Source of the DNA: Escherichia coli
GTDB taxonomy: Bacteria; Pseudomonadota; Gammaproteobacteria; Enterobacterales; Enterobacteriaceae
Reading direction: 5' to 3' (one strand)
NCBI RefSeq assembly: GCF_013122565.1
Contig: NZ_CP053258.1
DNA length: 64,000 nucleotides
This document shows, one piece after another, positions 52,620 to 55,598 of this stretch; positions within the stretch are counted from its first letter, which is position 1, and every line of letters begins with the position of its first letter. Made by a program: the position numbers and the translations under genes. The notes beneath the pieces are model-generated. The model saw only the letters and a program-made list of their open reading frames with translations, did not search any database and was not told the origin of the DNA.

Positions 52620-52894
52620 TAAAATCCTCATGCCCCATAAATCCTGGTTAATACGATTGTGTTTAATAATCACCTGTTGAATATAATATTATTTATCTAT
52701 TCATTAAGTGAAATTTTTTTTCGGAATTTATCAACAAGAGTGAAATCAGAATTTACGCTAGAATAGCTGCGGGTGCTTGAGACTGTTTGTCTCAGGTATT
52801 CACCGAAAGGCAGACAGAGAAAAGCCCCACCTGACTATAAATCAAAGTGTACTGCACCCATTTTGTTGGACGATGAAATGGAATAGCCCCTGAT

Positions 52895-53416
52895 ATGTCA
52901 AAGCCAAAATACCCTTTTGAAAAGCGCCTTGAAGTCGTGAATCACTACTTCACTACTGATGATGGTTACAGGATCATCTCGGCACGTTTTGGTGTCCCCC
53001 GAACCCAGGTCAGGACATGGGTTGCCCTCTATGAAAAACATGGAGAAAAAGGTTTAATTCCCAAACCTAAAGGTGTTAGTGCTGATCCAGAGTTGCGTAT
53101 TAAGGTCGTGAAAGCTGTGATCGAGCAGCACATGTCCCTTAATCAGGCTGCTGCTCACTTTATGCTTGCTGGTAGTGGTTCTGTAGCCAGGTGGCTGAAG
53201 GTTTATGAAGAGCGCGGAGAAGCTGGTTTACGCGCGCTCAAGATTGGCACCAAAAGAAACATTGCAATATCAGTTGATCCAGAAAAAGCGGCATCAGCAT
53301 TGGAGCTGTCAAAAGACCGACGCATTGAGGATCTTGAAAGGCAAGTTCGATTTCTTGAAACGCGGCTTGTGTATCTAAAAAAGCTGAAAGCCTTAGCTCA
53401 TCCCACGAAAAAGTGA
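52895..53416 (+). CDS. insJ: IS150 OrfA (HTH DNA-binding protein)
   Basis: 173-aa ORF MSKPKYPFEKRLEVVNHYFTTDDGYRIISARFGVPRTQVRTWVALYEKHGEKGL... Confidence 0.95.
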   Translation: MSKPKYPFEKRLEVVNHYFTTDDGYRIISARFGVPRTQVRTWVALYEKHGEKGLIPKPKGVSADPELRIKVVKAVIEQHMSLNQAAAHFMLAGSGSVARWLKVYEERGEAGLRALKIGTKRNIAISVDPEKAASALELSKDRRIEDLERQVRFLETRLVYLKKLKALAHPTKK

Positions 53417-54264
53417 AAGTACTCAACGAGCTAAGGCAGTTTTATCCTCTTGATGAGCTTCTCAGGGCTGCGGAGATACCGCGCAGTACGTTTTATTACC
53501 ATCTAAAGGCTCTCAGCAAGCCTGACAAGTATGCGGACGTTAAAAAGCGTATTGGTGAGATTTATCATGAGAATAGAGGCCGATACGGATACCGTAGGGT
53601 AACGCTGTCTCTTCATCGAGAAGGGAAACAGATTAACCATAAAGCTGTTCAGCGCCTGATGGGAACCCTCTCACTTAAGGCAGCGATTAAGGTCAAGCGA
53701 TACCGCTCTTACAGAGGAGAGGTAGGGCAAACCGCCCCCAATGTTCTCCAAAGAGATTTCAAGGCTACGCGGCCAAACGAGAAGTGGGTTACCGATGTTA
53801 CTGAATTTGCAGTCAATGGGCGCAAGCTGTATTTGTCTCCAGTAATAGATCTCTTCAACAATGAAGTTATTTCTTACAGCCTTTCGGAAAGACCTGTGAT
53901 GAACATGGTTGAGAATATGCTCGATCAGGCATTCAAAAAGCTTAATCCTCACGAGCATCCTGTTCTGCACTCTGACCAGGGATGGCAGTATCGTATGAGA
54001 AGATATCAAAATATCCTTAAAGAACATGGTATTAAACAAAGCATGTCCAGAAAAGGCAATTGTCTGGATAATGCTGTGGTGGAGTGTTTCTTTGGAACCT
54101 TAAAGTCGGAGTGTTTTTATCTTGATGAGTTCAGTAATATAAGCGAACTGAAGGATGCTGTTACGGAATATATTGAATACTACAACAGAAGAAGAATTAG
54201 CCTGAAATTAAAAGGTCTGACTCCAATTGAATATCGGAATCAGACCTATATGCCTCGTGTTTAA
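53413..54264 (+). CDS. insK: IS150 OrfB (DDE integrase/transposase catalytic domain)
   Basis: 283-aa ORF overlapping insJ; DDE region (WVTDVTEF..., HSDQGWQY...); OrfAB fusion expected by -1 frameshift at the heptamer. Confidence 0.95.
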
Positions 54265-54306
54265 CTGTCCAACTTTTTGGGGTCAGTACAAAGTGAGGCT
54301 GCCTCT

Positions 54307-54520
54307 ATGCTTCAACAACATAAGGTTAGCCTCTTACTCGTTGGAAATCAACACAGGAGGCTGGGAATGCCGCAGAAATACGGATTACTATTCGTTAATA
54401 GTGATTTGTTTCACGCTTTTATTTTTCACCTGGATGATAAGAGATTCACTGTGTGAATTGCATATTAAACAGGAGAGTTATGAGCTGGCGGCGTTTTTAG
54501 CCTGCAAATTGAAAGAGTAA
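54307..54520 (+). pseudogene. hokA: hokA locus (Hok-family membrane toxin), apparently frameshifted and separated from its upstream region by IS150
   Basis: Hok C-terminal domain SLIVICFTLLFFTWMIRDSLCELHIKQESYELAAFLACKLKE is encoded to the stop at 54518..54520, but the Hok-type start MPQKY (ATG 54367) is in the +1 frame and reads MPQKYGLLFVNSDLF... to a stop at 54454. An overlapping mok-like frame starts at ATG 54307. Confidence 0.55.
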
Positions 54521-54679
54521 GAGTCTTCGGCGGGAAATTATTCCCGCCTTTCTTACGGTGTTGGGTATTCTCAATGCACCCTAATTTATTTCTTTAATGA
54601 ATGTTTTTTTTAAAAAATACGCATGGATTTGGCTATTAGATAAGTTTTTAATCGGGAACAGGAATGGTTCGGAGCCTTC

Positions 54680-55051
54680 ATGAATAAACTGCTTTTACTG
54701 TTGATAATGCTTTATCAACGACATCTTTCTCCTCGCAAAGGATACCGCTGTGCTTACAGTGTGTTGTACCAAACGCAGGGATGTTCGGGAGCAGTCAAAG
54801 AGATTATTCAACAGAAAGGTGTTATTGCAGGCTGGGGCGATATACGTCAGCGTTTTGCAGATTGCCGACTTGCGGCAAAGACAATCAGGCAGAAGCAACA
54901 CCTGAACGAGGTAATACGTAAAAAGAAGAATAATGATTGTGATTGTTCCGGGTGTGATGGTGCGGTCTGTCGTGATTGCGACATTCCGGTGCCGGATCTG
55001 GATTGTTCCTGGGACTGTTCTTCTCTACATTTAAAGCGGTTTTTCCAATAA
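54680..55051 (+). CDS. YidD-like (DUF37-like) protein with cysteine-rich C-terminal tail
   Basis: 123-aa ORF MNKLLLLLIMLYQRHLSPRKGYRCAYSVLYQTQGCSGAVKEIIQQKGVIAGWGDIRQRF... resembles the YidD core as I recall it (YQxxISP..G..CRF.P.CS...G.IKG.W); tail NNDCDCSGCDGAVCRDCDIPVPDLDCSWDCSS holds 8 Cys; GGAG 8 nt upstream. Confidence 0.5.
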   Translation: MNKLLLLLIMLYQRHLSPRKGYRCAYSVLYQTQGCSGAVKEIIQQKGVIAGWGDIRQRFADCRLAAKTIRQKQHLNEVIRKKKNNDCDCSGCDGAVCRDCDIPVPDLDCSWDCSSLHLKRFFQ

Positions 55052-55055
55052 AAAA

Positions 55056-55092
55056 ATCCCCGCCAAATGGCAGGGATCTTAGATTCTGTGCT
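55056..55092 (-). terminator. Rho-independent terminator of cspA
   Basis: On the minus strand, stem atccctgcc / ggcggggat (one G-U pair) followed by a U-run; directly 3' of the cspA stop. Confidence 0.7.
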
Positions 55093-55104
55093 TTTAAGCA
55101 GAGA

Positions 55105-55317
55105 TTACAGGCTGGTTACGTTACCAGCTGCCGGGCCTTTAGCGCCGCTTTCGATGGTGAAGGACACTTTCTGACCTTCGTCCAGAGATTTGTAACCATC
55201 GTTCTGGATAGCAGAGAAGTGTACAAACACGTCTTTAGAGCCATCGTCAGGAGTGATGAAGCCGAAGCCTTTGTCAGCGTTGAACCATTTTACGATACCA
55301 GTCATTTTACCGGACAT
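55105..55317 (-). CDS. cspA: Major cold-shock protein CspA
   Basis: 70-aa [73 protein letters not shown]. Confidence 0.98.
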
Positions 55318-55480
55318 AGTGTATTACCTTTAATAATTAATTGTGCCTTTCGGCGATATGGCGTGCTTTACAGATTTTTGAAGCGTTAAAGGAAATGCAC
55401 TACGAGGGGTATCAACGATAACTCTTGAAGAGGACTTGCCTTACTACACTGCTTTAATGGTCTGTACGTCAAACCGTTGA
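55318..55480 (-). promoter_or_regulatory. cspA long 5' UTR (cold-box / thermosensing leader) region
   Basis: cspA is known to carry a ~160-nt structured 5' UTR; extent assigned from that knowledge, not resolved base by base here. Confidence 0.5.
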
Positions 55481-55598
55481 TGTGCATTAAGCCACGCATT
55501 GGCGGGTGATGCAACAATTATTTTTCATATTTATGATTAATCGGTTGGAAAACGGTCCTGTCATCAGGACCGTAAACAGCAATAAAGTGGATAAAAGT

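What the first reader, a model, noticed from the sequence alone, without database searches (positions are those of the whole stretch)
54680..55051. YidD-like ORF with an 8-cysteine C-terminal tail between hokA and cspA
The 123-aa ORF has its own SD and lies between the hokA terminator hairpin (about 54527..54556) and the cspA terminator. Its N-terminal two-thirds resemble the YidD/DUF37 core (LYQRHLSP.KG.RCAYS...QQKGVIAGW); the last ~30 residues are a Cys-rich acidic tail (DCDCSGCDGAVCRDCD...DCSWDC), suggestive of metal binding or disulfides and absent from canonical YidD. I do not recall an annotated gene here in K-12 and cannot verify that from sequence.
Basis: partly seen in the sequence, partly recalled or inferred. 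Interest (0 to 1): 0.5.

Follow-up and report, generated by a model that had tools for sequence, protein, structure and literature searches.

The report
Accessory YidD paralog with cysteine-rich tail
This is a real small gene found in about 2% of E. coli strains and missing from K-12; it encodes a second, divergent copy of the membrane-insertion helper YidD with a cysteine- and aspartate-rich tail, and it belongs to a widespread protein subfamily that databases file under plain YidD and nobody has studied.

Summary
The 123-aa ORF at 54680..55051 (+) is real and has a GGAG Shine-Dalgarno 5 nt upstream. Residues 3-69 match YidD: NCBIfam TIGR00278 scores 75.4 bits (cut-off 40) and Pfam PF01809 gives E=1.4e-5.

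The tail has 7 cysteines, not 8. Position 111 is Trp here but Cys in 82% of enteric homologs.

The gene lies on a ~457-bp segment present in 112 of 5,426 complete E. coli genomes. It is always single-copy, always in the hokA–cspA slot, and labelled yidD in every row listed. K-12 has ~55 bp of unrelated filler there. The canonical yidD (rnpA–yidD–yidC) is in 5,424 of 5,426 genomes, so this is an extra paralog.

Orthologs occupy the same glyS…cspA slot in Klebsiella and Superficieibacter. An Escherichia sp. E2661 copy is frameshifted. This suggests an old gene being lost.

It belongs to a large unnamed subfamily with the motif YQRx[LI]SPRKG[YFW]xCA, five extra residues between core Cys1 and Cys2, a basic linker and a Cys-rich tail. 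There are 1,366 representative clusters, with no conserved neighbour, no solved structure and no paper found.

Function is inferred, not shown: a cytoplasmic, membrane-peripheral YidD-fold protein whose thiolate/carboxylate tail binds metal. Interest is modest.

The parts
54680..55051 (+). CDS of the 123-aa YidD-like paralog, stop codon included
   Evidence: ORF list; TIGR00278 75.4 bits; PF01809; annotated yidD at the same place in the carrying genomes read
54671..54674 (+). Shine-Dalgarno GGAG, 5 nt before the ATG
   Evidence: Read directly from the sequence; conserved in the E2661, SCPM8794 and CUPF09 alleles
54686..54886 (+). YidD-domain core (residues 3-69): hydrophobic N-terminal helix, YQRHLSPRKGYRCAY motif, core Cys24, Cys35 and Cys62
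   Evidence: HMM envelopes; alignment to canonical YidD; AF2 helices with pLDDT 70-86
54866..54934 (+). Basic (Lys/Arg-rich) helical linker, residues 63-85
   Evidence: AF2 predicts one long helix over residues 48-84; composition K5 R3; a basic linker recurs across the subfamily
54935..55021 (+). Cys/Asp-rich tail, residues 86-114 (DCDCSGCDGAVCRDCDIPVPDLDCSWDCS): 7 Cys and 8 Asp in 29 residues
   Evidence: Cys columns 87, 92, 97, 109, (111) and 113 are conserved across enteric genera; predicted disordered, pLDDT <50
54590..55046 (.). Strain-variable segment carrying the gene; replaced by ~55 bp of unrelated AT-rich filler in K-12 and most E. coli
   Evidence: Alignment A1; 112 of 5,426 genomes carry it; the filler is not similar beyond chance
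55053..55080 (-). cspA intrinsic terminator hairpin, starting 2 nt after the ORF stop; convergent arrangement
   Evidence: Terminator scan; Rfam cspA model 55050-55478 on the minus strand
54529..54548 (+). hokA 3' hairpin plus T-run, bounding the upstream intergenic region
   Evidence: Terminator scan

Best explanation
SHOWN: this is a genuine protein-coding gene for a divergent paralog of YidD. It is an accessory gene in E. coli, present in about 2% of complete genomes alongside the universal canonical yidD. It sits in a slot (glyS … gene → ← cspA ← yiaG) that is shared with Klebsiella and Superficieibacter. It belongs to a large, unnamed YidD subfamily defined by four features: the motif YQRx[LI]SPRKG[YFW]xCA, a 5-residue insertion between core Cys1 and Cys2, loss of the canonical C-terminal CHP…GGxDPVP motif, and its replacement by a basic helix plus a Cys-rich, usually acidic, length-variable tail. 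INFERRED from the shared slot, a frameshifted copy and a lost conserved cysteine: the gene is ancestral at this locus and is being lost in Escherichia. INFERRED as mechanism: like YidD, the protein is cytoplasmic and docks on the inner membrane through its hydrophobic N-terminal helix. The flexible tail of reduced thiolates and carboxylates chelates a metal ion or cluster (Zn, Cu(I) or Fe-S), alone or together with the three core cysteines. This would give a metal- or redox-dependent version of a YidD-like membrane-biogenesis helper, or a small membrane-proximal metal buffer or chaperone.
For: Gene reality and family: TIGR00278 75.4 bits against a cut-off of 40; PF01809; 33% identity to E. coli YidD with the three Cys aligned. 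Paralog status: canonical yidD is in 5,424 of 5,426 genomes at >=99% identity; this gene is in 112 of 5,426, one copy each, always on the chromosome. Same slot in other genera: K. spallanzanii and two Superficieibacter, K. aerogenes, Klebsiella sp., Escherichia sp. E2661. Subfamily: 130 genomic relatives in Rhodobacterales, Burkholderiales, Neisseriaceae, Abditibacteriota, Deinococcus, Actinobacteria and cyanobacteria, nearly all with Cys-rich tails. There are 1,366 representative clusters at E<=1e-3; 151 of 173 sequences fetched carry SP[RYH]KG..C, with a median of 7 tail Cys. Constraint: within-E. coli dN/dS is 0.14-0.28 in the core and 0.5-0.7 in the tail for the more diverged allele pairs (small counts). 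Tail Cys columns are more conserved than other tail columns across enteric genera, 0.71 against 0.49. Cytoplasmic side: there is no signal-peptide cleavage motif. Longer family members place Arg-Arg and then a TM helix after the Cys tail, which puts the tail inside by the positive-inside rule. Repeat-like tails such as PDAC x4, CDVPS x3 and PDCS x2 look like polydentate ligand arrays rather than a folded domain. AF2 leaves the tail unstructured, as expected for an apo metal-binding segment.
Against: There is no expression evidence, and the scan found no sigma-70 consensus promoter upstream. No metal-binding family or solved structure matches: PDB by sequence and by fold returned nothing, and the tail alone gave only a zinc-finger hit at E=0.2. 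No metal-homeostasis neighbour is conserved. Contexts differ by clade: a GST-like gene within a beta-oxidation cluster in Rhodobacterales, an ABC-F ATPase in Klebsiella, and orphan positions on megaplasmids. The window allele has lost a Cys that is near-invariant in the family (W111), and 98% of E. coli do without the gene, so any function in E. coli is dispensable. Even the role of canonical YidD is known only as a mild insertion-efficiency effect (Yu et al. 2011, as cited in PMC8082313 and PMC10502375).
Confidence: 0.55

Rival explanations
1. An intact-looking relic. The gene was functional in an enterobacterial ancestor, but in Escherichia it is drifting toward loss and does nothing in this strain.
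For: It is absent from 5,314 of 5,426 complete E. coli genomes. The Escherichia sp. E2661 copy has a +1 frameshift at about codon 54. Most E. coli alleles carry Trp at position 111, where 82% of enteric homologs have Cys, and the SCPM-O-B-8794 allele also has C109Y. Overall dN/dS is 0.33-0.55, and about 1 for the closest allele pairs, though counts are tiny. No consensus promoter was found. GC is 44.6% against 50.4% for the window.
Against: All six E. coli alleles examined keep the full 123-codon frame, the SD and the start codon. Core dN/dS of 0.14-0.28 indicates continuing purifying selection. The alleles differ by up to ~5% in nucleotide sequence yet are still intact.
Confidence: 0.3
2. A RiPP-like precursor. 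The conserved YidD-like domain would act as a long leader, as in the NHLP and Nif11 leader families, and the hypervariable Cys-rich tail would be a core peptide that is modified and released.
For: The architecture fits: a conserved ~70-aa N-terminal part followed by a hypervariable, Cys/Asp/Ser-rich C-terminal part of variable length, often repeat-like and often ending in C-x-C plus an aromatic residue.
Against: No maturase (radical SAM, cyclodehydratase, lanthipeptide synthetase), peptidase or exporter is conserved next to it in the 80 loci fetched and screened, nor in the five other loci whose annotation I read. In E. coli the neighbours are hokA and cspA. There is no double-glycine or similar cleavage motif. 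The N-terminal part keeps the YidD domain's own conserved cysteines.
Confidence: 0.05
3. A chance ORF in an AT-rich intergenic insert, miscalled as a gene by annotation pipelines.
For: It is small, no promoter was found, and a third of the model is low confidence.
Against: HMM E=2e-21. Homologs at 50-60% identity lie in the same slot in other genera, with the reading frame and cysteines conserved. There are hundreds of family clusters. dN/dS is below 1.
Confidence: 0.02

Closest known systems
Canonical YidD (E. coli b4557; TIGR00278 / Pfam PF01809, formerly the DUF37 or 'haemolytic' domain), the membrane protein insertion efficiency factor encoded in rpmH-rnpA-yidD-yidC
   Same: It passes the family HMMs. 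It shares the hydrophobic or amphipathic N-terminal helix, the YQ..SP motif, three aligned cysteines and the G(V/I)I.G turn. The Cys2-Cys3 spacing is identical at 26 residues.
   Different: Identity is only 33% over 57 residues. There are five extra residues between Cys1 and Cys2. The canonical C-terminal CHPxxxGGxDPVP motif is absent and is replaced by a basic helix plus a Cys/Asp-rich tail. The protein is 123 aa against 85 aa. The gene is not in the rnpA-yidC operon but stands alone, convergent with cspA. It is accessory (2% of strains) rather than core (>99.9%).
Cysteine-rich metal-binding tails and small metal sponges (bacterial metallothionein-like proteins, C-terminal metal-binding tails of metallochaperones)
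   Same: CxC, CxxC and DxC motifs are densely packed in a short, predicted-disordered, acidic segment whose length and repeat number vary between relatives.
   Different: There is no sequence or profile similarity to any such family. Metal binding is untested. The tail is fused to a YidD-fold domain, which to my knowledge has not been described.
RiPP precursors with long domain-like leaders (NHLP / Nif11 type)
   Same: A conserved N-terminal domain is followed by a hypervariable Cys-rich C-terminus.
   Different: No associated maturase or transporter genes were found in any clade examined.

Membership tests
YidD (TIGR00278 / PF01809) | Scores above the curated family HMM threshold | tested here: met
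   TIGR00278 75.4 bits against a cut-off of 40, model positions 2-63 of 64. PF01809 E=1.4e-5, model positions 2-58 of 67. Canonical E. coli YidD scores 91.4 bits.
YidD (TIGR00278 / PF01809) | YQ..(I/L)SP motif and three conserved cysteines | tested here: met
   Y12, Q13, S17, P18, C24, C35 and C62 align with those of canonical YidD.
YidD (TIGR00278 / PF01809) | Canonical C-terminal CHP…GGxDPVP motif and ~85-aa size | tested here: not met
   After Cys62 the sequence is RLAAKTIRQ… followed by the Cys tail. Only an I-P-V-P remnant aligns, and weakly. The last 9 Pfam model positions are unmatched.
YidD (TIGR00278 / PF01809) | Encoded in the rpmH-rnpA-yidD-yidC cluster | tested here: not met
   The gene lies between hokA and cspA. 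The canonical copy sits between rnpA and yidC and is present in 5,424 of 5,426 genomes.
YidD (TIGR00278 / PF01809) | Improves YidC/Sec-dependent membrane protein insertion | not testable with these tools
   Needs genetics or biochemistry. Known only for canonical YidD (Yu et al. 2011, as cited in PMC8082313).
Unnamed 'SPRKG / Cys-tail' YidD-like subfamily (defined here) | Motif YQRx[LI]SPRKG[YFW]xCA with a 5-residue insertion between Cys1 and Cys2 | tested here: met
   The window has YQRHLSPRKGYRCAY. The motif is shared by 130 genomic loci and by 151 of 173 fetched homologs. The insertion is visible.
Unnamed 'SPRKG / Cys-tail' YidD-like subfamily (defined here) | Basic linker followed by a Cys-rich C-terminal tail (>=3 Cys) | tested here: met
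   The window has 7 tail Cys. 144 of 151 motif-bearing homologs have at least 3, with a median of 7.
RiPP precursor peptide | Co-located maturase, protease or exporter genes | tested here: not met
   No such neighbour family recurs in the 80 loci or in the annotated contexts read. The E. coli neighbours are hokA and cspA.
Metallothionein-like / metal-binding tail | Stoichiometric metal binding through Cys thiolates | not testable with these tools
   Only composition and motif density support it. There is no profile or structural match.
Mobile element or phage cargo | Carried on plasmids or phages, or flanked by repeats | tested here: not met
   No phage hit. Plasmid hits are distant homologs only, on 13 kb to 1.17 Mb non-mobilizable replicons (14 of 15 are at least 158 kb), and none is enterobacterial. 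In E. coli it is always chromosomal and in one slot.

The most novel reading that the evidence does not exclude
The 'SPRKG / Cys-tail' proteins are not extra YidDs at all. They would be an unrecognised, phylum-spanning family of small membrane-proximal metalloproteins: a YidD fold whose three core cysteines, together with a polydentate Cys/Asp tail, hold Zn, Cu or an Fe-S cluster. They would act as metal- or redox-gated helpers for the biogenesis of particular membrane or metallo-proteins. The E. coli copy would be a conveniently dispensable representative for genetics.
Probability: 0.2. Interest if true: 0.55.

Novelty: new variant of a known kind. Interest (0 to 1): 0.35.

Why it matters
YidD is itself poorly understood. 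A second, architecturally distinct branch is currently hidden under the same automatic name. It has over a thousand 50%-identity clusters across Proteobacteria, Actinobacteria, Deinococcus, Abditibacteriota and cyanobacteria. The 'YidD' annotation therefore transfers a function that was never tested for these proteins. The E. coli copy is non-essential and strain-variable, with natural presence and absence backgrounds (ST405-like carriers against K-12), so the subfamily could be studied directly by simple genetics and metal analysis. For this window specifically the practical message is modest: it is an accessory gene at a known variable spot, not a new system.

Tried and rejected
1. AF2 with a 55-sequence alignment gave only a moderately confident helical core (pLDDT 70-86) and an unstructured tail (pLDDT <50). 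Foldseek against the PDB and a profile search of PDB sequences found nothing. No structural inference about a metal site was possible.

2. The tail alone against the PDB gave only a zinc-finger hit at E=0.2, which is not significant.

3. PADLOC gave no hit and PHROGs only E=0.14, so the gene is neither a defence nor a phage gene.

4. I looked for a universally conserved neighbour in 80 loci and found none. Only clade-specific synteny appeared: a Rhodobacterales GST-like gene overlapping the start codon inside an acyl-CoA dehydrogenase/thiolase cluster, and a different cluster in Abditibacteriota.

5. I tested whether K-12's ~55-bp filler is a remnant of the 457-bp segment. The local alignment score was no better than shuffles (192 of 500 shuffles were at least as good). 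The difference is a replacement, not a clean deletion, and polarity cannot be read from the junctions. The MAFFT alignment that suggested partial homology is therefore not reliable there.

6. The sigma-70 promoter scan found none in 54200-55500.

7. Literature searches for YidD with cysteine, YidD with paralog, and PF01809 found nothing on this subfamily. The primary YidD paper (PMC3187451) is not held.

8. Pfam and NCBIfam on the long family variants, which have an extra TM segment and a ~120-aa C-terminal domain, found only the YidD part.

Full report
**1. The observation**

It runs 54680..55051 on the + strand with an ATG start, 123 codons and a TAA stop.

- A GGAG lies at 54671-54674, five bases before the ATG. 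It is conserved in other alleles.
- Upstream is the hokA 3' hairpin at 54529-54548, followed by TTTCTT.
- Downstream, two bases after the stop codon, is the cspA terminator hairpin on the minus strand at 55053-55080.
- The Rfam cspA mRNA model ends at 55050, so the two genes converge on one hairpin.
- No sigma-70 consensus promoter was found upstream.
- One correction: the tail has seven cysteines (87, 89, 92, 97, 100, 109, 113), not eight. With core Cys24, Cys35 and Cys62 the protein has ten.

**2. It is a YidD-domain protein, but not the YidD**

NCBIfam TIGR00278 matches residues 3-69 at 75.4 bits against a curated cut-off of 40. Pfam PF01809 matches residues 3-64 at E=1.4e-5, covering model positions 2-58 of 67.

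I compared the ORF with E. coli's own canonical YidD, which I fetched from the rnpA-yidD-yidC cluster of K-12.

- Identity is 33% over 57 residues.
- The three cysteines, the YQ..SP motif and the GVI.G turn align.
- The new protein has five extra residues between Cys1 and Cys2.
- After Cys3 it lacks the canonical CHPLHPGGDDPVP ending.
- In its place are a Lys/Arg-rich helix (residues ~63-85) and the Cys/Asp-rich segment DCDCSGCDGAVCRDCDIPVPDLDCSWDCS.
- Only an I-P-V-P element may echo the canonical DPVP. I treat that as a weak lead.

**3. Distribution in E. coli**

A 1.1-kb query spanning hokA to cspA matches 5,422 of 5,426 complete E. coli genomes, but only 112 cover the middle of it.

- The ORF-bearing segment alone is found in exactly those 112 genomes. 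It is always one copy and always chromosomal. It is labelled yidD in all 60 rows listed and in each of the four carrying genomes whose annotation I read.
- Judging by strain names ('405', O102:H6), many carriers look like one lineage, probably ST405; I did not type them. Their segment is about 97.2% identical to the window. Seven genomes are at least 99% identical, including LHM10-1, which also shares the window's IS150 and frameshifted hokA.
- K-12 and typical strains have about 55 bp of different AT-rich sequence in place of window ~54590-55046.
- That filler is not detectably related to the 457-bp segment: 192 of 500 shuffles score as well. The event is a replacement, and its direction cannot be read from the junctions.
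- Canonical yidD is present at >=99% identity in 5,424 of 5,426 genomes. Carriers therefore have two genes named yidD.
- There is no phage copy. The only plasmid copies are distant homologs on non-mobilizable replicons of 13 kb to 1.17 Mb (14 of 15 are at least 158 kb) in Vibrio, Pseudomonas, Deinococcus, Loktanella and Calothrix.

**4. Ancestry**

The same slot, glyS … gene → ← cspA ← yiaG, holds a 50-60% identical ortholog in several other taxa:

- Klebsiella spallanzanii and two Superficieibacter species
- K. aerogenes, on 24 or more contigs
- a Klebsiella sp.

In Klebsiella an ABC-F-type ATPase gene lies just upstream.

Escherichia sp. E2661 has the gene in the same slot but with a one-base insertion near codon 54 that truncates it to 80 aa.

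Among about 100,000 species-representative genomes the enteric hits were only one Escherichia, K. spallanzanii and two Superficieibacter.

The simplest reading is an old enterobacterial gene at this locus that has been lost many times. Import by recombination through the highly conserved cspA flank is not excluded.

**5. Is it under selection?**

Six E. coli alleles all keep 123 codons.

- Pairwise Nei-Gojobori dN/dS is 0.33-0.55 overall for the more diverged pairs.
- It is 0.14-0.28 in the core (codons 1-70) and 0.5-0.7 in the tail. Counts are small, and the closest pairs are uninformative.
- Across enteric genera the tail's cysteine columns are better conserved than its other columns, 0.71 against 0.49. 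Cys87, Cys109 and Asp112 are invariant.
- On the other side, this allele has Trp111 where 82% of enteric homologs have Cys. Another allele also has C109Y.
- GC is 44.6% (GC3 41%) against 50.4% for the window.
- Taken together, the protein appears constrained but the constraint is weakening in Escherichia.

**6. The family**

A word-indexed search of 5.8 billion proteins gave only 29 clusters. An exhaustive phmmer search of 1.84 billion representatives gave 1,366 at E<=1e-3 and 209 at E<=1e-10.

A degenerate-pattern scan of species-representative genomes found 130 loci in Rhodobacterales, Burkholderiales, Neisseriaceae, Abditibacteriota, Deinococcus, many Actinobacteria and some cyanobacteria.

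- Of 173 sequences fetched, 151 carry SP[RYH]KG..C, and the rest carry close variants.
- 144 of the 151 have at least 3 tail cysteines, with a median of 7.
- Tails come in clade-specific flavours. Actinobacteria and Deinococcus have a short …GVCCCGPIPIPFRF. Cyanobacteria have …GCIVIPCCIPI. Proteobacteria have long acidic tails, often repeat-like (PDAC x4, CDVPS x3, PDCS x2) and often ending C-D-C-S-F/W.
- A few members continue with Arg-Arg, a transmembrane helix and an unknown ~120-aa domain. By the positive-inside rule this places the YidD core and the Cys tail in the cytoplasm.
- All members tested score above the TIGR00278 cut-off, which explains why annotation pipelines call them YidD.
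- I found no paper on the subfamily and no solved relative.

**7. Context gives no universal partner**

- In 14 of the 15 Rhodobacterales loci a GST-superfamily gene ends within about 90 bp upstream, and in 8 of them it overlaps or abuts the start codon. The pair sits inside a cluster of a MerR-type regulator, an acyl-CoA dehydrogenase, a thiolase and a hydroxyacyl-CoA dehydrogenase.
- Abditibacteriota have a different conserved cluster.
- The Klebsiella neighbour is an ABC-F ATPase.
- On the megaplasmids the neighbours are unrelated.
- In E. coli the neighbours are hokA and cspA.
- No RiPP maturase, transporter or metal-homeostasis gene recurs.

**8. Mechanism (inferred)**

By homology to YidD the N-terminal hydrophobic helix (LLLLLIMLY) should dock the protein on the cytoplasmic face of the inner membrane. 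Canonical YidD is a peripheral inner-membrane protein that modestly improves insertion of YidC-dependent substrates (Yu et al. 2011, cited in PMC8082313 and PMC10502375; the details are from my own knowledge).

In the reducing cytoplasm a flexible segment with seven Cys and eight Asp in 29 residues is far more likely to chelate a metal ion or cluster than to form disulfides. AF2 leaves it disordered, as expected for an apo form.

I therefore favour a metal- or redox-dependent YidD-like helper, or a membrane-proximal metal buffer. My confidence in that mechanism is low (about 0.3). My confidence in the identity, distribution and family statements is high (about 0.9).

The main rival is that in E. 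coli the gene is a drifting relic. A RiPP-precursor reading fits the architecture but not the neighbourhoods. A chance ORF is excluded.

**9. Verdict**

It is not an unannotated gene: RefSeq names it yidD in the carrying genomes I read. It is not a new system.

What is new is that it represents a distinct, widespread and unstudied Cys-tailed branch of the YidD family, carried as an accessory, apparently declining gene at a variable spot next to cspA. Interest is modest.

Noticed in passing
window 54369..54520 (hokA), ORFs 54277..54456 and 54227..54520: hokA is frameshifted in this window: MPQKYGLLFVNSD… runs out of frame, and the conserved C-terminal part is in another frame. The same 'frameshifted' pseudogene call appears in strains LHM10-1 and CUPF09, whereas N3 and ST2747 carry an intact hokA next to the same yidD-like gene.
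   Followed up: partly
window ~52930..54330 (IS150; transposase ORF 53413..54264 +): An IS150 copy sits immediately upstream of hokA, as in K-12, but in the opposite orientation relative to hokA (+ here, in LHM10-1 and in ST2747; - in K-12). Strains such as JA0265 and N3 have none. This suggests independent insertions or an inversion at a hot spot.
   Followed up: no
window 52771..52924 (+) and 54213..54369 (+): There are two matches to the Rfam sok model on either side of the IS150: 86 bits (above the gathering score) and 38 bits (below it). This hints that the hok/sok 5' region is split or partly duplicated by the IS.
   Followed up: no
window ~54498..54569 (-): K-12 annotates a 23-aa small protein, YsaE, antisense to the 3' end of hokA. 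The equivalent ORF is annotated 'hypothetical protein' in LHM10-1 and JA0265, and it lies just upstream of the variable segment.
   Followed up: no
window 55049..55080: The ORF stop codon (55049-55051) overlaps the 3' end of the cspA mRNA model (55050). The shared hairpin has a T-run only on the cspA side. A + strand transcript of the yidD-like gene may therefore read through antisense into cspA in carrier strains.
   Followed up: partly
L008-L013, L017, L019, L022, L024, L028, L030-L032, L039, L054 (Rhodobacterales loci): In 14 Rhodobacterales loci a GST-superfamily gene ends within about 90 bp upstream of the Cys-tail YidD-like gene, and in 8 of them it overlaps or abuts the start codon. The pair lies inside a conserved cluster of a MerR-type regulator, an acyl-CoA dehydrogenase, a thiolase and a hydroxyacyl-CoA dehydrogenase.
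   Followed up: partly
L011:2084-2869; proteins P0058, P0115, P0127, P0142, P0161: Some family members are 250-277 aa. After the Cys-rich tail come Arg-Arg, one transmembrane helix and a ~120-aa domain ending …RRWH(L/F)F, with no Pfam or NCBIfam match.
   Followed up: partly
L093 (Vibrio parahaemolyticus 882-kb plasmid), L094 (Pseudomonas pMPPla107, 972 kb), L095: Distant members of the subfamily are carried on ~0.9-1 Mb megaplasmids, among mostly hypothetical genes and housekeeping paralogs such as tuf and mutM.
   Followed up: no
L090/L091:1295-2914, L092:1263-2882, L005:3274-4899 (Klebsiella loci): In Klebsiella an ABC-F-type ATPase gene (539-541 aa, two ABC_tran domains) lies in the same orientation 87-120 bp upstream of the yidD-like gene, between glyS and cspA. 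E. coli has hokA in this slot instead, and Klebsiella sp. locus L092 carries both a hok gene and the ABC-F gene.
   Followed up: no
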